From a virus: a DNA stretch of 64,000 nt. Shown piece after piece: positions 31,130 to 52,119 of the stretch. Below the pieces are notes generated by a model. It searched no databases. It saw only the letters and a list, made by a program, of their open reading frames with translations, and had not been told where the DNA came from. How positions within the stretch are numbered: the first letter of the stretch is position 1; each line of letters opens with the position of its first letter. Location of the stretch: IMG/VR virus record IMGVR_UViG_3300045999_008055. One strand, 5' to 3'. Both the position numbers and the translations under genes were made by a program.

Positions 31130-31217
31130 TGGAACGAGTAGGATTCGAACCTACGGATGATATTGAACCATCGGAAGTTTAGTAAACTTCTGCTTTAGAC
31201 CACTCAGCCATCGTTCC
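31130..31217 (-). tRNA. tRNA-Ser(ACT), class II long variable arm
   Basis: GGAACGA/TCGTTCC acceptor, GAAGT-TTACTAA-ACTTC anticodon arm, long variable arm, GTAGGTTCGAATCCTAC T-arm. Confidence 0.9.
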
Positions 31218-40903: not shown

Positions 40904-43168
40904 TTGAGTCTTATGAATATAAAAGTAAAAAAAAGAAATGGCGTTACAGAAAAATTTGATATAGAAAAAATTCATAAAGTAATAAGTTGGGCTATAAAAG
41001 ATTTAGCTGGTGTTAGTTTGACTGATGTAGAGATTAATGCTAAAATAAATATACATGAAGGTATTTCTACAAAAGAAATACATAAACTTTTAATTGAATC
41101 TGCGGCAAACATGATTAGTGTTGAGAAACCAAACTATCAATATGTAGCTGGAAGATTATTAAATTATCAACTAAGAAAAGATGTTTGGAAAGGTAAGCAT
41201 GCTCCAAGATTATTAGAATTCTTAAATCAAGGATTAAAAAATAAAATCTATGATCCAATTATATTGCAAAAATATGATGAAGATGAGTTGAATAAAATGG
41301 GAGAGTTTATTGATCATGAAAGAGATTATAATTTTACTTATGCAGGAGTAAAACAACTGTGCGATAAATACCTAATAAAAGATCGGGTTACAGGAAAAAT
41401 ATATGAAACTCCTCAATTTGCTTATTTATTGATATCTGCATATGCTTTTATAAATTACCCTAAAGAAACACGATTAAATTATGTTAGAAAATTTTATGAT
41501 GCTATAAGTAAACATAAGATTAACTTACCAACTCCAGTAATGGCTGGAGTAAGAACTCCAAGTAAAAATTATGCAAGTTGTTGCTTAATTGGTGTTGATG
41601 ATAGCAAGGATAGTATTACTGCTAGTGCAACTGCCGTAAGTATGGCTACAGCTAGTAGATGCGGAATAGGTATAGATGTATCAAAGATAAGAGCTATTGG
41701 ATCACCTATTAAAAATGGAGAAGTAGTTCATACTGGACTAATTCCATTTCTTAAGATTTACGAAAGTAGTGTTAAGGCATGGCAACAAAATGGTCTTCGT
41801 GGTGGAAGCGCTACTTGCAATATTCAATGGTGGCATTACGAAATCGAAGATATTGTAGTATTAAAAAATAATGCAGGAACAGACGACAATCGTGTTCGTA
41901 AATTAGATTATACAGTTGGTATGAGCAAATTATTCTACGATAGAGTCTTAAAAGATGAAGAGATTACTTTATTTAACACCGCTGAAGTTCCAGAGTTATA
42001 TGAAGCTTGGGGAACGAAAGATTTTGATAAGGTCTATAAAGAATGCGAAGCTAAAAAACTAAAAATAAAAAAGAAAGTATCTGCTCGTAAATTATTCTCT
42101 CTAATCATTAAAGAAAGAGTTGAAACTGGTAGAATCTATATCCTTAATGTAGATCACGCTAATAATCATGGAGCTTGGTTAGATAAAGTTACGATGAGTA
42201 ATCTTTGTACAGAAGTTATCCACCCTACTATCCCATTGAATGATTATCATGATAAAAATGGTGAAATTGGTATGTGTATTCTTTCGGCAGTAAATATGCT
42301 AGAAATAAAAAACTGGCAAGATCTTGAAAAGACTTGCGATCTTATCGTAAGATTTCTTGATGAAATCATTGAAATTCAAGATTACTTTAATATTGCTGCT
42401 GAAAATTTTGCAAAAAAACGCCGTAGTCTTGGAATAGGAATAACTAATTTAGCAGCATATTTTGCTAAAAATGAATTAAAATATACATCTGATAAAACAA
42501 TTCCAGTTCTTGATGAATGGATGGAGCATTTCCAATACTATCTCCTTAAATCAAGTTTAGAACTTGCTAAAGAAAAAGGAAAATGTGAAAAGTTTGATAG
42601 AACAAAATACTCTAAAGGAATTCTTCCTATTGATACTTACAAAGATAAGATCGATGAATTTTGTAAAAGAAAGCTATCTCTTGATTGGGAAAAATTAAGA
42701 AAAGAGATTAAAGAATTTGGATTAAGACATTCTACATTATCATCTTGTATGCCATGTGAAAGTAGTTCTGTAATTCAATCATCAACAAATGGCGTAGAAC
42801 CTATTCGCAGTTTAATTACTTATAAGATGAGTAAAATGGGTAAATTACCAGTACTAGTTCCTGGGGTTGGCAAATATGATGATAACTATGAACTAGCATA
42901 TGACTTCAAGGATAATTCTGGTTTACTAAAAATAAATGCCGTTATTCAAAAATACATTGACATGGCAATATCAACTAATGTATACTACAATTATTCTCAT
43001 TATGAAAATAATGTTCTTCCAGACGCTAAGGTAATGAAAGAGATCATGCAAGCGTACTCTCTAGGTTTAATTAGTCTTTATTATAATAATACAGACGATG
43101 GAGATAAGGAGCAGCTAATGAATCAGAAAGAAGATCGTGATTGTTCCTCTGGAGCGTGTAAATTATAA
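40904..43168 (+). CDS. nrdA: ribonucleotide reductase class Ia alpha subunit with ATP cone
   Basis: VKKRNG cone, PTP.MAG.RT, SCCL, NLCTE, MPCESSS, C-terminal CSSGACKL. Confidence 0.97.
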   Translation: MSLMNIKVKKRNGVTEKFDIEKIHKVISWAIKDLAGVSLTDVEINAKINIHEGISTKEIHKLLIESAANMISVEKPNYQYVAGRLLNYQLRKDVWKGKHAPRLLEFLNQGLKNKIYDPIILQKYDEDELNKMGEFIDHERDYNFTYAGVKQLCDKYLIKDRVTGKIYETPQFAYLLISAYAFINYPKETRLNYVRKFYDAISKHKINLPTPVMAGVRTPSKNYASCCLIGVDDSKDSITASATAVSMATASRCGIGIDVSKIRAIGSPIKNGEVVHTGLIPFLKIYESSVKAWQQNGLRGGSATCNIQWWHYEIEDIVVLKNNAGTDDNRVRKLDYTVGMSKLFYDRVLKDEEITLFNTAEVPELYEAWGTKDFDKVYKECEAKKLKIKKKVSARKLFSLIIKERVETGRIYILNVDHANNHGAWLDKVTMSNLCTEVIHPTIPLNDYHDKNGEIGMCILSAVNMLEIKNWQDLEKTCDLIVRFLDEIIEIQDYFNIAAENFAKKRRSLGIGITNLAAYFAKNELKYTSDKTIPVLDEWMEHFQYYLLKSSLELAKEKGKCEKFDRTKYSKGILPIDTYKDKIDEFCKRKLSLDWEKLRKEIKEFGLRHSTLSSCMPCESSSVIQSSTNGVEPIRSLITYKMSKMGKLPVLVPGVGKYDDNYELAYDFKDNSGLLKINAVIQKYIDMAISTNVYYNYSHYENNVLPDAKVMKEIMQAYSLGLISLYYNNTDDGDKEQLMNQKEDRDCSSGACKL

Positions 43169-43171
43169 TCT

Positions 43172-44236
43172 ATGAAAAGTGTTTTAAATTTAAAAAATAT
43201 AGATCATACAAAACAACCATTGTTTTTTGGAGAAGATCTTAATCTTCAAAGATATGATCGTTTTAAATATCCTATATTCTTTGAATTATTTAAAAAACAA
43301 GAAGAGTTCTTTTGGTGGCCACATGAAATAGCATTAAATAAAGATCGTAGCGATTATAAAGATCTAGCTGGACAGGAAAGGTTCGTATTTGATACTAACT
43401 TAAAATTTCAAACTCTTGGAGACAGTATGCTTTCAAGAAGTATTCATTCTTTAAAAGATTATGTAAGTAATCCAGAGCTTGAAATATGCATGAATACTTG
43501 GCAAAGATTTGAAGGTATTCATAGTTATTCTTATTCATATCTTCTTAATAATGTTCATCCAGATGCAAGTAAATTTTTTGATAGCATTATGGAAGATAAA
43601 GAAATCGTATCTCGCGCAGAGCTTATTAGAAATAATTTTGATAAAATCCTTGGTGATGATGATAAGAAAGACTTAAAACAAAAAATATTTGATTGTATCC
43701 TTTCTGTTAATGTAATGGAAGGTCTTGTATTCTATGTTTCGTTTGCTTGTTCTTTTTATTTTGGATATCGTGGTAAAATGGAAGGTAATGCTAAGATTAT
43801 TAAATTTATTCAAAGAGATGAAGCTTTACATTTTGCTACAACTCAAAACTTAATCAAGATTCTTAAAGAAGAAGATAAAGAAGGTTTTACTTCTATTGTA
43901 AAGAAGAGTGAAGATAAAGTTTATGCCTTCTATGAACAAGCTGCAAAAAATGAAATTGAATGGGCAGAGTACCTTTTTAGTAAAGGTTCTTTATTGGGTT
44001 TAAATGCAGAAGTTCTAGCTGGTTATTCTAAATGGCTTTGTGATGCTCGTTTACGATCATTAGGATATAAGAAAATTTTTAATCAAAAAGACAATCCTAT
44101 TGCTGGCTGGTTAGATAGTTATCTTGACAGTAGTAAGGTGCAAGTAGCTCCACAAGAAACAGAAATATCTACTTATAAGATTGGTGCAAGAAAAACTGAT
44201 ATATCTGATGATGATTTTGGAGATATGAAGCTATAA
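43172..44236 (+). CDS. nrdB: ribonucleotide reductase class Ia beta subunit
   Basis: FWWP.E, E.IHS.SY, EG..FY.SF, RDEALH, VAPQE.EI..Y. Confidence 0.97.
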   Translation: MKSVLNLKNIDHTKQPLFFGEDLNLQRYDRFKYPIFFELFKKQEEFFWWPHEIALNKDRSDYKDLAGQERFVFDTNLKFQTLGDSMLSRSIHSLKDYVSNPELEICMNTWQRFEGIHSYSYSYLLNNVHPDASKFFDSIMEDKEIVSRAELIRNNFDKILGDDDKKDLKQKIFDCILSVNVMEGLVFYVSFACSFYFGYRGKMEGNAKIIKFIQRDEALHFATTQNLIKILKEEDKEGFTSIVKKSEDKVYAFYEQAAKNEIEWAEYLFSKGSLLGLNAEVLAGYSKWLCDARLRSLGYKKIFNQKDNPIAGWLDSYLDSSKVQVAPQETEISTYKIGARKTDISDDDFGDMKL

Positions 44237-44503
44237 TATAATACAAAAGTGTATTATATAGTGTGAGCGAAATTAAAAAGAAAAAGAAAGTAAATCAACT
44301 TACAATTAAAGAGTGCGAAGCTATCCTAAATAGACTAGCTGGACAAATAGAATGTAAGTATTATCAGCATGTTTTAAATCACTATAGAAAGCTATTACCT
44401 TCTCATGGTGCAGCTATTGAACTATCTAATGTCCCAAGCGATAATAATGCTACTTTGCCTTAATTTTAATTAAAAATAATCATCCTTAAGTGTAAATATA
44501 TGT

Positions 44504-44836
44504 GTGAATTTAGATATCACAACAGTATTTAATCTTGTTATAGGAGCCTTATCATTTCTTGGTGGATGGCTATTTACTAGAGTATTTTCTATATCTGATC
44601 GTCAAGAGAAATTAATTAAAGATTTAAATGACAAAACATTTAGTGACTTCATAGCTTTAAGAAAAGAAGTAGAAATAGAAAGTAGAAAACATCAACAAGA
44701 AATAGCAGACTTAGCTTTAAAGGTTAGTACTACTTATGTTACGAAAGAATCCTTTGAAGCTTATTTTGATAGAATAGAAGCTAAACTTGATCGTAATTTC
44801 GAGACAATTCAACAATATTTGATGAACAAAAAATAA
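44504..44836 (+). CDS. single-TM coiled-coil protein (holin-like?)
   Basis: N-terminal TM followed by coiled coil. Confidence 0.45.
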   Translation: MNLDITTVFNLVIGALSFLGGWLFTRVFSISDRQEKLIKDLNDKTFSDFIALRKEVEIESRKHQQEIADLALKVSTTYVTKESFEAYFDRIEAKLDRNFETIQQYLMNKK

Positions 44837-44857
44837 AAATTAACTGTAATAGTTAAT

Positions 44858-45373
44858 GTGACTCTTTCGGAAAGAGATATTGATTTTTTTGCAAAGAAAT
44901 TAAGTTTATCGCCAGAAAAGACTTTTCTACTCTTGCAAGATCCAGATTGTTTGCCAGAAATTCTAAATAAAGTAGCAGAAGATAATATAGATGGAATTGT
45001 AGATATTAGTTTTCCTGTTTTTGCAGAGCTAACGATTATAAAATATAGTAAAGATTTAAACTATTCTTTTGAAGAAAAAGAGTATGTGTCAGAAACAGTT
45101 GGAACAAAATTTTATGATCTAATAGAATATCCGCTACAAAATAAATACTTTTTTACATTAGAGCAAAATGAAGATACTGCTAAATCTGTATTAGTATTTC
45201 TAGGATTCTTTTATAAAAGTTTACAGAAAACTAGAAGATGTTATCCATCAGAAAATGTTTATTATAATATAGCAAAAAATGGTTTTGAAAATTCAGAAAA
45301 ACAAGAAATATCTTATCATCTTAAAGATTGGATTAAAGTACTAAGAATCATACATAATGAAGTTTGGTATTAA
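44858..45373 (+). CDS. hypothetical protein
   Basis: 171-aa ORF. Confidence 0.6.
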   Translation: MTLSERDIDFFAKKLSLSPEKTFLLLQDPDCLPEILNKVAEDNIDGIVDISFPVFAELTIIKYSKDLNYSFEEKEYVSETVGTKFYDLIEYPLQNKYFFTLEQNEDTAKSVLVFLGFFYKSLQKTRRCYPSENVYYNIAKNGFENSEKQEISYHLKDWIKVLRIIHNEVWY

Positions 45374-45399
45374 TACGATATCCTTAATTATTTAACTTT

Positions 45400-45703
45400 T
45401 CTTTGATATCCAAAAGGGCTTTACCTCCAAATTTTATATATCTGAAGTTAAGTATTATCAATCCAACTTTTCTTTTGACTCCAAATTTATCACGATCTCA
45501 GCGATAAACGGGCCATCGCACTTATGGGTCAGAGGTAGCTTCGACCACTACATTCTGCGATGCCTATAGCTACATTCCCTTCAAAAGCCATATTATGTAC
45601 AAAAGAAGGTTTTAATAGTTGTCAGCCCTTTAGACATTGCTATCTCAAGGATTGATAGTTGATTTTTTGACATCAACAAACTGCTCTAATTGGAAGCTAT
45701 GTT
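45400..45703 (-). ncRNA. candidate large structured ncRNA B
   Basis: About 385-nt ORF-free gap; own TTGACA (45732-45737); local stems plus two 8-9 bp long-range complementarities; GCAA tetraloop. Confidence 0.6.
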
Positions 45704-45759
45704 AAATTATATTAGAATAGATTTGTCTTTTTGTCAAAGTTTTTTTATAATATATAAAA

Positions 45760-45969
45760 ATGGAAATAATCAAAAATAAGGCTAAATGGTCAGTTTACTC
45801 TCAAAAATGCATTAAGCATTATAATATAGATAATGATAATATTTATGATGAACCTAGCGAATATCCTTGTATTGCAATACCACAATTAATTTCGGACATA
45901 AATGGCGCAAGAGTTAAATTTAATTTTGTTTATAAAAAAGATTGCCAAAAACTTTTAAAAGCTTTATAA
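45760..45969 (+). CDS. hypothetical protein
   Basis: ORF with TATAAT just upstream. Confidence 0.55.
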   Translation: MEIIKNKAKWSVYSQKCIKHYNIDNDNIYDEPSEYPCIAIPQLISDINGARVKFNFVYKKDCQKLLKAL

Positions 45970-45999: not shown

Positions 46000-46386
46000 G
46001 GGCCAGATTTGGTTTCGATTTTAGGAATCGGAATTAGAATGCAAGTAGAGGTTTAGGTGGGTCTCTTTAAAAAGCCTTAAAAGTATTAACTGCCAAAACA
46101 GCTAAATACAAAGGTCATATCTCTGCTAGAGTTTCTCTAGTCGAGGAGACCGCTTCTGTAGCTTAAGTTCTACAGCGTGATTACCATGACACATCTAATG
46201 GATAATTGCGTATTTAGATGTCTTTATTTATAAAGTTTTTTTATTCTTTATAGGTTTAGTATTCAAAATAAAATCGCTGAGTATGTTTGTTTTTTCTCTA
46301 TACAAAGCTAAAAACAAAAAGAACTAAACTTGTAGTATTTTAATTTAAATTCACTAAAAGAAGCGGTTCGACTCCGCACTGGTCCA
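46000..46386 (+). ncRNA. ssrA: tmRNA
   Basis: 5' GGGCCAG..GGTTTCGA pairs with 3' CTGGTCC-A (G3-U70); T-arm GCGGTTCGACTCCGC; tag ORF 46092-46166 AKTAKYKGHISARVSLVEETASVA*. Confidence 0.93.
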
Positions 46387-46432: not shown

Positions 46433-46984
46433 ATGATTAAAAAAACAAAGATAATTTGTGCCACTTGCAATAAAGAGCATGAAATAAGACTAAGTGATTA
46501 TAAGAGAAAAATTAAAAATGGACAGGATAAATTTTACTGTAGTTTAAAATGTTCTGGAAAAGCTGATTATAAAAATAATCCTCAAAAACTTGAAAAAAAT
46601 AAAGGCAACATATCTTTATTAAAAGGATATGAGGCAAATAGATTAGATGAATATAGTCCATTCAAATATTCATTAAATAAAGCTAAATCCAGAAGTAAAG
46701 AAAGAGGAGAGGAGACAGATTTAACTTTAGAATATTTAAAAGAAATTTATGATAAACAAAAAGGTTTATGTGCATATACTAATATAAAGATGGAAATTCC
46801 TAGATCTTCTCAAGATGAAGATATTAAAAAAAGCCCAACAAAATTAAGCTTAGATAGAATTCATTCTCATACTGGTTATTTTAAAGGAAATGTAGAATTT
46901 GTGTGTTATTGTATTAATGTTATGAAAAATGATTTTACAAAAGAAGAGATGATAAAATTTATAAATCAAATAAAGTGTAAATAA
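46433..46984 (+). CDS. HNH-like (His-Me) endonuclease with N-terminal Zn ribbon
   Basis: CATC..FYCSLKC; CAYT...SLDRI....GY..GNV.FVC...N.MKN. Confidence 0.8.
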   Translation: MIKKTKIICATCNKEHEIRLSDYKRKIKNGQDKFYCSLKCSGKADYKNNPQKLEKNKGNISLLKGYEANRLDEYSPFKYSLNKAKSRSKERGEETDLTLEYLKEIYDKQKGLCAYTNIKMEIPRSSQDEDIKKSPTKLSLDRIHSHTGYFKGNVEFVCYCINVMKNDFTKEEMIKFINQIKCK

Positions 46985-47270: not shown

Positions 47271-47672
47271 TTATCTTACTTCTTTTCTTCCCTTACCTTT
47301 ATTTAAATTTCTATGAGAATCAGTTAGTGAGTGGCAATTTGGACATAAAACTTCTAAATTGTTTATATTATTATTTTTAAAATCTCCATCTTTATGATGA
47401 ATTTCTAATGTGCTTTTGCCTGTTGTTGAATTTCTTTTATTCCAACCGCAGATTTCGCATGAGTAGTTCTTTTTGTTTATTAAATAATTTCTAATAAAAG
47501 GTCTAATTTGCCCATTTGTTGTATACCCTCTATTGTTTCCATTTAACCAGTTTTGTATTTTAACATTGTTTTGATATTTAAACTGGCATGTATTATTACA
47601 ATAATATTTTATAGGTTTATCACATTCTTTGTTACAATTTTTGCATTTTCTTCTTGGCTTTCTAATATTCAT
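47271..47672 (-). CDS. HNH endonuclease
   Basis: CEICGW...LEIHHKDG...N...NL.VLCPNCH; start set at ATG 47672, 14 nt after GTGTAA. Confidence 0.88.
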   Translation of the reverse strand: MNIRKPRRKCKNCNKECDKPIKYYCNNTCQFKYQNNVKIQNWLNGNNRGYTTNGQIRPFIRNYLINKKNYSCEICGWNKRNSTTGKSTLEIHHKDGDFKNNNINNLEVLCPNCHSLTDSHRNLNKGKGRKEVR

Positions 47673-47764
47673 ATAAAATATTACACTCAAAAATAGACCA
47701 TTTAATAAATAATATTAGGTCTAATATAATAATTTTGTATATTATTTAGTGTAATTAATCCGCA

Positions 47765-49680: not shown

Positions 49681-52119
49681 ATGGCTCGCGCTAGTAAAAG
49701 ATCGTTTGTTAGTAGAATAGTTTCAAAAGTAACTGAAATTAAAAATATTCTTGCGGAAGTTGCTGCTTTAACAGCAGAAAAAACTAATTTACAATCAGAC
49801 CCAGTAACTAACGCTCAAGTCATAACAGAAAAAACGCAGAGAATAGAATTAAAAACAAAAAAAATAGAAAATAAAGTTAAAAGATCAGAAGAAAAAGTAA
49901 ATGTTATTGTTGTAAAAAAAATTGAAGAAAAAATTACAGCTTCTTTAATTGCGCCTTCAGATGAAGATTATGAACCAGTAAGTTCATTAGACAATAAACA
50001 AATTTCTTTTAATAATTCAATATATTATAATTTTGATGAGAATATAGATAGTATGTCTTACTTTTTTGGTCCTAATGTTGTTAATAGTTATTTTAATAAT
50101 AGATTTATAATTTTCAAAGGACAAAATGCTATAGATTATTTAAGAATCTCAAGTCAATTAGAAAATACCACAGATTCAAGAGGATATTATAAAACCTATA
50201 CTTCTAATGGAATTACAATTGGTGGAGAATATAGAAAAAATTATATTAAATATAAAAGAAATGATATTTGGATTTTATATGATAATCTTAATGATATAGT
50301 CTATTACAATAATTATACTGGTAATAATTTCCCAACAAAAAAATGGTATCGTCCAGATATTTTATATAAGACATCAATAGAATTAAAAGTAAAAACAATT
50401 GAAAACAGTGGCGGTTCTGGCGGTTCTGGCGATAGTGGAGGTTCTGGAAGCGTATCTAATAGCAGTTCTAGAAGTGGTTCTGGAAGTGGTTCTGGTAGCG
50501 GTTCTGGAAGTGGTACTTTAGCAGTAGGAATGGGATCACTAAATAATGCTATTGATGCAACAAGAAGAGTTGCTGTTTCTTATAATAATGATGCTGGCTT
50601 AGGATCATTATTAGAAATGATTTATGGCGATTATACAAGAAACGCAAGTAAACGAGCAATAGATATTGGTCATTTATTTGTTACCAGAAATAATGATGTA
50701 GTAGCAATTAACAGCAAACCAAGATCATTAGGCGGCGGAATCGGTTATGCTGGCGCTATATCTTTTTATAAAAATAACGACGGACTAGTTCCTGCCGCGG
50801 CGATATCTTATTCTCTTGAGCAAGCTTCTCTTTTTGCTAATATATCAGTTGCAAGCATTACAAATAATTATGGTGCAGGAGCAGGTTATGATATTTATCT
50901 TGTTAAAAATTCGCAACAGGTTTTGACTTCTCGTGGGCCTTCAATAGGTAGAAATTCATTAAAAATCTTAAATGATAATACATCTACACAAACTAATGCT
51001 TTTTTTGAAGTATTTAGTAATGGTAAGGTTTTTAGATCAAAGATAACTAATTCAGATGATTATGGATGGCACTATGGAAATTCTGATATTGATATCACAC
51101 ATGAGACAAGAAGGGTTTTGTATGCTGAAAATGTTCATAATGGTTTATTTTTCGCAGAAGGTCCAATAGCTTGTTATGTAGAAAATGTAAACGATTTACC
51201 AGTTATAAATGTTATAGATCCTTCTAGACTATCTTTAAAGAAAATTACAATGCCAGCAGACCTTCTTATATATATAACAATAAATAATATTAAAAAAATT
51301 ATTATTAAAAATTTAGATGGCGGGATATATGATATAGCCGTATCTATTGCACAAGAAGAAGGACAACCAAATCTATTTTATGGAAGGTTAGATTTAAATT
51401 CTAATGGCGAGCAACAAACAATAGCTTTTACTAGTTATAGTGTAACTGCTGCAAATGATATAACATATAATTTTTCTGCAAATAATATTTACGCAGTTAC
51501 AAAAAATTATCAAGTTTTCGCTGTTCGAGTAAATATTGGCCAACAACCAGTTGCATCAAATGTGAAATTGATTGCAAATAGTATAGGTATTAAATACATA
51601 CCAAGCGAAGACAGCTCTGGATCAGGCTCTGGATCAGGCTCTGGATCATATGGAATCTCTATTGGAGAAAGTTTATTAGATGAATTTTTATTAGGACCAT
51701 TATTTGGACCTCTAGATATTACAAATTCAATCAAAAGTGTTCAAACAGTGAATGAAAATATAATACTATACGTTAACCAAGGACATGGAGCACCAATCTT
51801 ACTAATTAATAAAACCTTAGAAAAATATATAATTGATCCACAATTTAATAGCATTCAATCTGCGGGAGAAAATGTTTATACCAAACAAATCGATTATAAT
51901 AGTTATAATTTACCAATAACTGGATGGCTTGATGCTCAAAATAATCCTGTAGAATTTTTACTAACAGCAACTCCAGTAGAAGAATGGATAGTTATGTTTG
52001 GCACAGCTAATGGTTGGTATAATAATGCTTATTGGATAACTAATATTAAAACAACATTAGATCAAAATGGTAATGGAAGTTGGAATGGAAATAATTATAG
52101 TAATGGATTAATTGTATAA
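49681..52119 (+). CDS. large modular protein with Gly-Ser linkers (possible fibre/surface protein)
   Basis: N-terminal coiled coil; GS repeats near 50407-50513 and 51614-51648; beta-rich domains. Confidence 0.55.
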   Translation: MARASKRSFVSRIVSKVTEIKNILAEVAALTAEKTNLQSDPVTNAQVITEKTQRIELKTKKIENKVKRSEEKVNVIVVKKIEEKITASLIAPSDEDYEPVSSLDNKQISFNNSIYYNFDENIDSMSYFFGPNVVNSYFNNRFIIFKGQNAIDYLRISSQLENTTDSRGYYKTYTSNGITIGGEYRKNYIKYKRNDIWILYDNLNDIVYYNNYTGNNFPTKKWYRPDILYKTSIELKVKTIENSGGSGGSGDSGGSGSVSNSSSRSGSGSGSGSGSGSGTLAVGMGSLNNAIDATRRVAVSYNNDAGLGSLLEMIYGDYTRNASKRAIDIGHLFVTRNNDVVAINSKPRSLGGGIGYAGAISFYKNNDGLVPAAAISYSLEQASLFANISVASITNNYGAGAGYDIYLVKNSQQVLTSRGPSIGRNSLKILNDNTSTQTNAFFEVFSNGKVFRSKITNSDDYGWHYGNSDIDITHETRRVLYAENVHNGLFFAEGPIACYVENVNDLPVINVIDPSRLSLKKITMPADLLIYITINNIKKIIIKNLDGGIYDIAVSIAQEEGQPNLFYGRLDLNSNGEQQTIAFTSYSVTAANDITYNFSANNIYAVTKNYQVFAVRVNIGQQPVASNVKLIANSIGIKYIPSEDSSGSGSGSGSGSYGISIGESLLDEFLLGPLFGPLDITNSIKSVQTVNENIILYVNQGHGAPILLINKTLEKYIIDPQFNSIQSAGENVYTKQIDYNSYNLPITGWLDAQNNPVEFLLTATPVEEWIVMFGTANGWYNNAYWITNIKTTLDQNGNGSWNGNNYSNGLIV

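What the first reader, a model, noticed from the sequence alone, without database searches (positions are those of the whole stretch)
45400..45703. Unrecognised ~300-nt multi-pseudoknot RNA transcribed divergently from the tmRNA locus
Seen: this is a ~385-nt ORF-free gap in an otherwise tightly packed genome. It has its own minus-strand TTGACA-17-TAATAT promoter (TTGACA at 45732-45737), like those of the protein genes. Local helices on the minus strand include ATAGCT/AGCTAT (closing domain 1), GTTGAT/ATCAAC, GATA-GCAA-TGTC (GNRA loop), CCTTC/GAAGG, CATCGCA/TGCGATG (enclosing a CAGA/TCTG-GTAG/CTAC arm) and TTTATCGC/GTGATAAA. Two perfect long-range complements join the 5' domain to the 3' tail: TATCAATCC/GGATTGATA (45649-57 with 45456-64) and AAAGGGCT/AGCCCTTT (45624-31 with 45413-20). 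AAATTTGGAG occurs twice. G-U pairs and the GNRA loop favour the minus strand. Inference: a phage-encoded large structured ncRNA (ribozyme, scaffold or protein decoy) that I cannot assign to RNase P, 6S, SRP or intron classes.
Basis: partly seen in the sequence, partly recalled or inferred. Interest (0 to 1): 0.85.

Follow-up and report, generated by a model that had tools for sequence, protein, structure and literature searches.

The report
New knotted RNA gene of lake phages
This ORF-free gap in an uncultured freshwater phage is a separately transcribed gene for a roughly 310-base, intricately folded non-coding RNA that matches no catalogued RNA family, and it carries two single-stranded purine-rich tracts that evolution keeps letter-for-letter identical to each other; its job is still unknown.

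Summary
Window 45395-45703 (minus strand) is a real structured RNA gene. It is more conserved than the flanking coding DNA. A TTGACA-17-TAnnAT promoter sits at a fixed distance in all of roughly 100 distinct homologues from freshwater viral and metagenome contigs. Twelve collinear helices, including two pseudoknots, are supported by compensatory changes across four subtypes. G-U pairs outnumber A-C pairs, which points to the minus strand. No Rfam 15 family matches any subtype. GenBank phages gave no match, and a tail-motif pattern scan of GTDB species genomes gave only chance hits.

New here: two single-stranded tracts, 45485-45466 and the 3' tail 45413-45395, always share the same core sequence. 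There are eight haplotypes, at least eight independent switches on trees, and no discordant copy. No complementary third element was found. They therefore most likely touch each other or one symmetric partner.

The RNA is not a cis-regulator: its gene neighbours differ between subtypes. The large contigs that could be searched hold no reverse transcriptase and no SmpB. Function is unknown. My best guess is a trans-acting scaffold, decoy or ribozyme made early in infection.

This scan has found the same family on other genomes, and other agents reached the same general verdict.

The parts
45709..45737 (-). Sigma-70-type promoter: TTGACA (45737-45732), 17-nt spacer, TAATAT (45714-45709). The inferred transcription start is near 45703.
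   Evidence: 10 of 12 consensus matches. TTGACA and TAnnAT are kept at a fixed distance from the conserved 5' CAUAG in all subtypes, while the spacer sequence varies.
45395..45703 (-). The conserved RNA, about 309 nt.
   Evidence: Column identity is 0.88-0.97 here against 0.67-0.87 in the flanking genes. Conservation begins at CAUAG and stops right after AAAGAAAAGU.
45683..45697 (-). P1 hairpin GCUU/GAGC. Its loop is CCAAUUA, and loop CCAA lies at 45693-45690.
   Evidence: 100% paired with 3 covarying pairs. In the D type it becomes GUGC/GCAC, UCGC/GCGA or CCGC/GCGG. Loop CCAA covaries with UUGG of both tracts.
45658..45677 (-). P2 hairpin GUUGA/UCAAC.
   Evidence: Present with different sequences in all four subtypes. 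MAFFT misaligns it between subtypes.
45649..45657 (-). P3 5' strand UAUCAAUCC. It pairs with 45464-45456.
   Evidence: 8 of 9 pairs covary. 93% paired with 7 of 7 pairs covarying across four subtypes.
45614..45644 (-). P4a (GAUAG/CUAUU) and P4b (UGUC/GACA) hairpin. Its loop carries the P5 5' strand AAGGGCU (45630-45624).
   Evidence: P4a is 96.5% paired and P4b 95.6%, both with covariation. L048 and L019 show A..C..G, which favours P4b over the GNRA hairpin.
45578..45609 (-). P6 hairpin CCUUC/GAAGG with a 22-nt loop. The loop contains UGUACA.
   Evidence: 4 covarying pairs. In most D types the loop shrinks to a tetraloop (GAAA in several).
45568..45573 (-). P7 5' strand GUAGCU. It forms a pseudoknot with 45540-45535, inside the loop of P9.
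   Evidence: 98% paired, with C-G to G-C and A-U to G-C double changes. 90% paired across four subtypes.
45514..45562 (-). P8 (CAUCGCA/UGCGAUG) encloses P9 (GGUC/GACC). The loop of P9 holds the P7 3' strand AGCUAC (45540-45535).
   Evidence: P8 is 97% paired with 3 covarying pairs, and P9 is 98.5% paired with 3 covarying pairs.
45486..45508 (-). P10 hairpin UUUAUCGC/GUGAUAAA.
   Evidence: 6 covarying pairs. It is capped by a GNRA loop (GCAA or GAAA) in the C and D types.
45466..45485 (-). Tract m1 (J10/3): UUUGGAGUCAAAAGAAAAGU, single-stranded.
   Evidence: Invariant within the A-C types. Its core is always identical to that of m2.
45456..45464 (-). P3 3' strand GGAUUGAUA.
45425..45447 (-). 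P11 hairpin CUUCAGAU/AUUUGGAG.
   Evidence: Present in all subtypes with different sequences. It is partly misaligned by MAFFT.
45414..45420 (-). P5 3' strand AGCCCUU. It forms a pseudoknot with the P4b loop.
   Evidence: 99.4% paired with 4 covarying pairs. 98% paired with 5 covarying pairs.
45395..45413 (-). Tract m2 (3' tail): UUGGAUAUCAAAGAAAAGU. Conservation ends at 45395 and no terminator follows.
   Evidence: 0 terminator-like sites. Concordance with m1 is shown.

Best explanation
This is a stand-alone gene for a trans-acting structured RNA of about 310 nt. The RNA belongs to a previously uncatalogued family confined, as far as could be searched, to a lineage of uncultured AT-rich freshwater phages of about 120-170 kb.

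What is shown:
- Host-type sigma-70 RNA polymerase would start near 45703 and read the minus strand.
- The RNA folds into twelve helices. P3 closes a large domain.
- There are two H-type pseudoknots. In P5 the loop of the P4 hairpin pairs with the 3' region. In P7 an upstream strand pairs with the loop of P9.
- The fold holds out two single-stranded purine-rich tracts: the P10-P3 linker and the 3' tail. Their core sequences are kept identical to each other through at least eight independent evolutionary switches.

What is inferred:
- This identity coupling means the two tracts either pair with each other base-for-base (like with like, which needs parallel strands) or are read by one two-fold-symmetric partner.
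- Together they would form the working surface of the RNA.
- The structured core is the scaffold that positions them.
- The RNA is made early in infection and acts on a host or phage component of RNA metabolism or translation, by sequestering, recruiting or processing it. It is not a regulator of a neighbouring gene.
- The 3' end is probably made by processing just after the second tract, because no terminator exists.
For: Conservation exceeds that of the flanking genes. The promoter is conserved in position in all subtypes.

On structure-blind MAFFT alignments:
- 92.9% of cells are paired against 29-49% when partners are slid. 41 of 72 pairs show double-sided change, and 0 of 500 shuffles reach this (51 sequences).
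- 81% are paired against 36-49%, with 50 of 72 pairs double-sided (four subtypes).

All twelve helices are found collinear, with different sequences, in six representatives. G-U cells (202) outnumber A-C cells (63). There is no codon periodicity and no conserved ORF.

Tract identity:
- 57 C/C and 19 U/U sequences, none mixed.
- At least 3 switches on the tree.
- D types show 6 haplotypes with 0 discordant copies among 22 unique sequences, and at least 5 changes.
- All 79 sequences of the first set are concordant.

The RNA is independent of its neighbours. It is convergent with a 171-aa gene in types A and C, but lies upstream of nrdA in types B and D. One relative lacks the RNA and the tmRNA together.
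Against: No transcript data could be obtained, so expression, ends and strand are inferred from the sequence only. Single-sequence folding energy is unremarkable (z about -2.3 on both strands).

Nothing shows what the tracts bind. Parallel like-with-like pairing has little precedent in natural RNAs. A symmetric protein partner, or shared recognition by an active site, would also give concordance. The tracts differ by conserved one-nucleotide offsets, so they are not strictly equivalent.

The counts rest on related sequences, so the shuffle controls overstate significance. The slid controls and the tree counts are the safer guides.
Confidence: 0.85

Rival explanations
1. Decoy or sponge for a dimeric or multi-site RNA-binding protein or ribonuclease. 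The two identical single-stranded tracts would act as pseudo-substrates. The analogy is the single-stranded tails of type III antitoxin RNAs, which occupy ToxN grooves. Cleavage at the tract ends would create the 3' end.
For: There are two identical single-stranded tracts, each next to a helix. No terminator is present and conservation ends sharply after AAGU. The early-type promoter is strong. From general knowledge, type III toxins cleave A-rich sites.
Against: Close relatives differ by single letters in both tracts at once. That would need a protein to change specificity repeatedly over short evolutionary distances. The RNA is a single 310-nt unit, not a tandem array of 34-45-nt repeats. 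No partner gene was identified. The adjacent 171-aa protein has no family and folded poorly.
Confidence: 0.22
2. Self-processing ribozyme. The folded core would recognise the same motif twice and cleave after each AAGU. That would define the 3' end and split the RNA into two pieces held together by P3 and P5. The P1 loop would act as a guide.
For: P1-loop CCAA is complementary to UUGG of both tracts, with three-way covariation (A, U, U against U, A, G). There is no terminator. From general knowledge, large, highly conserved, pseudoknotted RNAs are often catalytic.
Against: The tract changes in L198 and L211 are not compensated in the P1 loop or anywhere else in the RNA. Several D types lack any loop-tract complementarity. 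No known self-cleaving class matches. No cleavage data exist.
Confidence: 0.15
3. An RNA-only homo-oligomer of the kind shown for ROOL, GOLLD and OLE. One loop and two matching receptors per molecule, plus palindromic stretches, would link the copies.
For: One CCAA loop faces two UUGG sites. Self-complementary hexamers are kept with different sequences at two places: GAUAUC, GAUAUU or GAGCUC in the second tract, and UGUACA, UGUGCA or AAGCUU in the P6 loop. The RNA is phage-borne and lies near a tRNA-like gene, as ROOL and GOLLD often do (10.1101/2024.12.08.627333, abstract seen).
Against: Short palindromes are fairly likely by chance in loops of this size. P6 in most D types has only a four-base loop (GAAA in several). 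There is no sequence or model similarity to ROOL or GOLLD. Nothing tests assembly.
Confidence: 0.13
4. A cis-acting leader, riboswitch or antisense regulator of a neighbouring gene (nrdA or the 171-aa gene).
For: In types B and D the RNA lies about 130 nt upstream of nrdA and is co-oriented with it. In types A and C, read-through would be antisense to the 171-aa gene.
Against: The same RNA keeps its sequence and fold whichever gene lies downstream. In types A and C no gene lies downstream on its own strand. No riboswitch family matches.
Confidence: 0.04
5. Replication-origin primer RNA, analogous to ColE1 RNA II or the T4 origin transcripts. The purine-rich tracts would form stable RNA-DNA hybrids.
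For: It has a strong promoter and no terminator, and it ends in purine-rich runs. In types B and D it sits at a divergence point between gene blocks.
Against: The cumulative GC-skew minimum in the window is near 38 kb, not 45.5 kb. Nothing in this model requires the two tracts to stay identical. The orientation flips relative to the neighbouring genes.
Confidence: 0.05
6. A very divergent or rearranged member of a known family (group I intron, RNase P RNA, tmRNA relative) that Rfam models miss.
For: GAGG(U/G)AAAG(C/U)C followed by a long-range helix resembles RNase P CR-I and P4. This resemblance is recalled from memory and is only a lead. The P3/P5 pseudoknot with a hairpin between the 3' strands loosely recalls P3-P8-P7 of group I introns.
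Against: No hit better than E=5 was found for four subtypes. The helix order cannot be mapped onto RNase P even after circular permutation: P2 and P4 are nested there, whereas P3 and P5 cross here. It lies in no host gene, so there are no exons. It has no T-arm.
Confidence: 0.03

Closest known systems
ROOL and GOLLD RNAs (large ornate phage and prophage ncRNAs in Rfam)
   Same: Both are large, heavily structured, phage-borne and separately transcribed. Both lie near tRNA-like genes, have no known function, and were found by comparative analysis.
   Different: There is no model match. This RNA is about 310 nt, against about 580 and 800 nt. The helix plan is different. Multimer formation is untested here. 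Identical paired single-stranded tracts are not a described feature of ROOL or GOLLD, as far as I know.
tmRNA (RF00023), the neighbouring gene at 46000-46386
   Same: Both are multi-pseudoknot RNAs of similar size. In types A and C they are encoded side by side from a shared divergent promoter region, and they are gained or lost together in one relative.
   Different: This RNA has no tRNA-like domain, no T-arm and no tag reading frame. No intermolecular helix with covariation was found between it and the tmRNA. In types B and D the two genes are 10-16 kb apart.
Type III antitoxin RNAs (ToxI and relatives)
   Same: Both have a pseudoknotted core that presents single-stranded A-rich tails. Both have ends that might be made by cleavage at a repeated motif. 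Both have a phage-host conflict setting.
   Different: Those are tandem arrays of 34-45-nt units encoded next to a toxin gene. This is one 310-nt unit with no toxin gene nearby.
Template RNAs with terminal repeats (retroviral R, DRT2 ncRNA)
   Same: Two short direct repeats within one RNA are kept identical.
   Different: No reverse transcriptase was found in five contigs of up to 87% completeness. The segment between the repeats is locked into long-range helices.

Membership tests
Any Rfam 15 family | A covariance-model score at or above the gathering threshold. | tested here: not met
   In the window, only the tmRNA and two tRNAs pass. The best match in 45300-45800 is Termite-leu at 13.6 bits, E=5. 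Nothing matches the B, C or D subtype elements.
Bacterial RNase P RNA | P1-P2-P3 followed by CR-I/P4, nested with CR-V/P4'-P2'-P1'. A model match is expected. | tested here: not met
   No RNase P model hit at E up to 10. The long-range helices P3 and P5 cross rather than nest.
Group I intron | The intron interrupts a gene, has a P1 with a U-G wobble at the 5' splice site, and has the P3-P9 core. A match to the Intron_gpI model is expected. | tested here: not met
   It lies between genes and has its own promoter. The P1 wobble position is not conserved. There is no model hit.
tmRNA, one-piece or two-piece | A tRNA-like acceptor and T-arm, plus a tag reading frame. | tested here: not met
   ARAGORN and Rfam find only the neighbouring tmRNA.
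Riboswitch or cis-regulatory leader | A constant position upstream of the regulated gene. | tested here: not met
   In types A and C there is no gene downstream on its strand. In types B and D the downstream gene is nrdA.
Reverse-transcriptase template RNA (retron, DRT, DGR) | An associated reverse transcriptase gene. | tested here: not met
   PF00078 is absent from five phage contigs that are 54-87% complete.
Type III toxin-antitoxin antitoxin RNA | A tandem array of short repeats next to a ToxN, AbiQ or CptN-type toxin gene. | tested here: not met
   There are only two copies of a 13-17-nt motif inside a unique 310-nt fold. The neighbouring proteins match no such family.
ROOL/GOLLD-type self-assembling RNA | Homo-oligomeric assembly. 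| not testable with these tools
   The only hints are one loop with two complementary sites and conserved palindromes.

The most novel reading that the evidence does not exclude
The two purine-rich tracts (the P10-P3 linker and the 3' tail) pair with each other like with like (A with A, G with G, U with U, C with C) as a parallel-stranded duplex. The pseudoknotted core would clamp this duplex in place. 'Identity covariation' would then be its evolutionary signature. This would be a structural element with almost no precedent in natural RNAs, sitting at the heart of a new phage RNA class.
Probability: 0.25. Interest if true: 0.92.

Novelty: categorically new. Interest (0 to 1): 0.8.

Why it matters
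New classes of large RNA with complex folds are rare. Historically they have turned out to be ribozymes, ribonucleoprotein scaffolds or, recently, self-assembling RNA cages.

This one is abundant in lake viromes. Roughly 100 distinct sequences in four subtypes were collected here, which is enough diversity for structure determination and design of mutants.

It also shows an unusual signal: two strands that must stay identical rather than complementary. That points either to an unfamiliar kind of RNA-RNA contact or to a symmetric partner.

Because it is often encoded back-to-back with a phage tmRNA that carries an odd 24-residue tag, it may also open a way into how these phages manipulate host translation or RNA turnover.

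Tried and rejected
- **Rfam:** searched at gathering and at permissive thresholds on four subtypes; nothing found.
- **GenBank phages:** BLASTN with A-, B- and D-type elements, the tmRNA, and a neighbouring 812-aa ORF (49681-52119, weak PHROG 'attachment protein' match) gave no match. A virion structural protein has only distant cyanophage relatives.
- **GTDB species genomes:** a pattern scan gave three hits, all chance.
- **Pairing with the phage tmRNA:** a first duplex screen suggested the tmRNA 3' end. A paired-alignment search over 58 phages found no intermolecular helix with real covariation.
- **A third strand complementary to the tracts:** none inside the RNA, none in the flanking loci, and none for the tract's terminal 10-mer (AAAGAAAAGT) in the 64-kb window.
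- **Reverse-transcriptase template idea:** no RT found.
- **Phage SmpB:** none found.
- **The 171-aa neighbour as partner:** no Pfam or PHROG family. Atlas hits carry no common Pfam family (all labelled hypothetical protein). AlphaFold confidence was too low to use, at pLDDT 51.
- **Origin reading:** the GC-skew minimum lies elsewhere.
- **Tract as a mimic of this phage's ribosome-binding sites:** gene leaders are A/U-rich without a shared motif.
- **D-type tract pattern scan:** gave mostly coding false positives. A core-motif pattern then worked.
- **Full-length covariance model:** not built, because calibration time limits rule out about 320 positions. MAFFT alignments were used instead, which understates pairing in P2, P10 and P11.

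Full report
**Setting.** The window is part of a large AT-rich phage genome. It carries the ribonucleotide reductase genes nrdA and nrdB at 40904-44236, virion proteins, HNH endonucleases, two tRNAs and a tmRNA at 46000-46386. No cultured phage in GenBank resembles it at the DNA level. One virion protein has only distant cyanophage relatives. The finding lies in the gap 45374-45759. On one side is a 171-aa gene of unknown function that ends at 45373 on the plus strand. On the other is a 69-aa ORF that starts at 45760.

**Is it real?** I used the two flanking proteins as handles, and then conserved motifs of the element itself. With these I collected homologous loci from IMG/VR and JGI metagenome contigs, all from freshwater samples.
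- The stretch 45395-45705 is more conserved than the coding DNA around it: column identity is 0.88-0.97 against 0.67-0.87.
- Conservation starts at CAUAG, 6-8 nt after a -10 box, and stops abruptly after AAAGAAAAGU.
- In every homologue a TTGACA box and a TAnnAT box keep their spacing while the spacer sequence drifts. This is what a working sigma-70-type promoter on the minus strand looks like.
- No terminator follows.
- Variable columns show no three-base periodicity (43/43/38). Indels are mostly of one or two bases. No reading frame is conserved.
- Rfam 15 gives nothing for this element in any subtype.
- A tail-motif pattern scan of one genome per prokaryotic species gave only three chance hits.

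**Four subtypes.**
- Type A is the window's own type.
- Type C is about 62-70% identical to type A by the two measures used and sits in the same place. There the tmRNA is directly divergent, without the 69-aa ORF.
- Type B is about 67% identical.
- Type D is more divergent still, and was first recognised by eye.
- Types B and D lie upstream of nrdA and are co-oriented with it, with the tmRNA 10-16 kb away.
- The simplest reading is that the nrdA-to-171-aa block is inverted between the two arrangements, while the RNA gene stays where it is.
- One relative (L159) has the 171-aa gene followed directly by the structural gene, with neither the RNA nor the tmRNA. In that region, therefore, the two RNA genes behave as one accessory cassette.
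- The neighbour downstream of the RNA changes while the RNA does not. A cis-regulatory role is therefore unlikely.

**Fold.** Reading the alignments gave twelve helices (window coordinates).
- P1 and P2 are 5' hairpins.
- P3 (45657-45649 with 45464-45456) closes a large domain.
- Inside that domain, the P4a/P4b hairpin presents a nine-base loop. Seven bases of the loop pair with 45420-45414 beyond P3. This is pseudoknot P5.
- P6 is a hairpin of variable size.
- P7 (45573-45568) pairs with the loop of hairpin P9 (45540-45535), which is nested in P8. This is the second pseudoknot.
- P10 and P11 are hairpins, one on each side of the P3 3' strand.

I counted pairs on a MAFFT alignment of 51 distinct sequences that was not fitted to any structure. 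92.9% of cells form standard pairs, against 29-49% when partners are slid by one to three columns. 41 of 72 pairs show changes on both sides. No shuffle out of 500 reaches the observed values. With all four subtypes (29 sequences), 81% are paired against 36-49%, and 50 of 72 pairs have double-sided changes. P5 is 98% paired with five covarying pairs, and all seven pairs of the main P3 segment covary.

The remaining unpaired cells sit in P2, P10 and P11. These helices exist in every subtype with different sequences and lengths, and MAFFT misregisters them. A direct check on six representatives found all twelve helices collinear and fully complementary. G-U cells outnumber A-C cells 202 to 63, which selects the minus strand.

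These were right: the gap, the promoter, the strand, both long-range complements, P2, P6, P8, P10 and the duplicated AAAUUUGGAG. Four local helices are not favoured.
- The 'GNRA' hairpin has 22 A-C cells, and its strand pairs downstream instead.
- CAGA/UCUG and GUAG/CUAC lack compensation and are replaced by P7 and P9.
- AUAGCU/AGCUAU is 96% paired in types A-C. But it shares bases with P1 and P7, which are better compensated in types B and D. It may be an alternative pairing.

**The new observation.** Two stretches are single-stranded in this fold: the linker from P10 to P3 (m1, 45485-45466) and the 3' tail after P5 (m2, 45413-45395). In types A-C they read UUUGGAGUCAAAAGAAAAGU and UUGGAUAUCAAAGAAAAGU. 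Whenever one copy changes, the other carries the same change.
- Among 76 distinct A-C sequences, 57 have UC in both and 19 have UU in both. None is mixed.
- A tree built without these columns needs at least three switches.
- In type D the shared core is rewritten to A(A)UUGGGAAGU in both copies.
- Within 22 distinct D sequences there are six core haplotypes...GGGAAGU...GGGAAAU...GGGAAAA...GGGAAGA...GGAAAGU and ACUGGGAAGU. There is no discordant copy, and the tree needs at least five independent changes.
- Conserved one-base offsets between the copies persist across subtypes, so the two are related but not interchangeable.

Complementary partners were looked for and not found:
- nothing inside the RNA compensates the L198 or L211 changes;
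- nothing in the tmRNA;
- nothing in the flanking loci;
- nothing matching the tract's terminal 10-mer in the window.

The only internal complement is the P1 loop CCAA. It can pair with the UUGG at the head of either tract, and it covaries three ways in types A-C: loop A, U, U against tract U, A, G in both copies, with one exception in 51. That contact is absent in several D lineages.

**Reading the coupling.** A fixed host target would not allow eight haplotypes. A protein partner, or a third guide strand, would need three coordinated changes each time, repeatedly, between close relatives. Gene conversion between 13-17-base repeats is unlikely.

The most economical explanation is a direct contact in which each base faces its twin. 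That implies parallel strands, and it is chemically most plausible for purine-rich strands such as these. This is an inference, not a result. I give it about one chance in four. The alternatives are a symmetric protein (decoy or scaffold), a shared active site (self-processing) and multimer contacts. They are listed with their odds as rivals. All of them agree that the tracts are the working part and the knotted core is their frame.

**Other tests.**
- No reverse transcriptase and no SmpB are encoded in five contigs that are up to 87% complete. Four of the five carry the tmRNA, and in the fifth the RNA lies about 5 kb from the end of a 61%-complete contig.
- The GC-skew minimum is at about 38 kb, not at this gene.
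- The adjacent 171-aa protein gave no family and an unusable model.
- Expression could not be checked.

**Prior knowledge.**
- The large survey of structured RNAs in IMG/VR (PMC10690425) reports candidates of 29-151 bases. It cannot have described this RNA whole, although fragments might be in its tables. I could not check that.
- The paper on phage Melnitz (PMC9004378) describes two-piece phage tmRNAs with a glutamine riboswitch, which is a different arrangement.
- Notes from this scan show that the same family was flagged on at least three other genomes, and that two follow-up agents also called it a new RNA class of unknown function. My tests were independent of theirs and agree. The tract coupling and the subtype D series are additions.

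**Verdict.** This is a real, separately transcribed, multi-pseudoknot RNA gene of a family that is in no catalogue. It has an unusual identity constraint between two single-stranded tracts. Its function is unknown.

Noticed in passing
window 46000-46386 (+), and L075, L013, L147, L152: The phage tmRNA encodes a 24-residue tag, AKTAKYKGHISARVSLVEETASVA. The tag is nearly invariant in type A, B and D phages. Type C phages carry a different 24-residue tag ending in LIAA. No phage SmpB was found.
   Followed up: partly
L159:9735-11424: A close relative has the 171-aa gene followed after 26 nt by the virion structural gene. Neither the structured RNA nor the tmRNA is present, so the two RNA genes look like one accessory cassette.
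   Followed up: partly
window 40904-45373 compared with L086:1258-5064 and L010:2555-8390: The nrdA-nrdB-171-aa block appears inverted relative to the RNA gene between phage subtypes. The block of 193, 196, 362 and 116-aa genes changes side accordingly.
   Followed up: partly
window 46433-46984 (+) and 47271-47690 (-): Two HNH-type endonuclease genes lie just beyond the tmRNA. L008 has a 1.3-kb insertion between the 171-aa gene and the RNA. Homing endonucleases may move this cassette.
   Followed up: no
window, gene starts throughout: Most genes lack a Shine-Dalgarno sequence. Many have a TATAAT-like box only 8-12 nt before the ATG, which suggests very short or absent leaders and late promoters of the T4 kind.
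   Followed up: no
window 45586-45600 (-), P6 loop: The P6 loop keeps a self-complementary hexamer with different sequences: UGUACA or UGUGCA in types A and C, and AAGCUU in type B. The second tract likewise keeps GAUAUC, GAUAUU or GAGCUC. These are possible kissing or dimerisation sites.
   Followed up: partly
window 45760-45969 (+): The 69-aa ORF between the RNA and the tmRNA is conserved in type A phages (70-94% identity) but absent in type C. It has no family match.
   Followed up: partly
window 31130-31217 (-): A class II tRNA-Ser has anticodon ACU, which is unusual for bacteria and phages.
   Followed up: no
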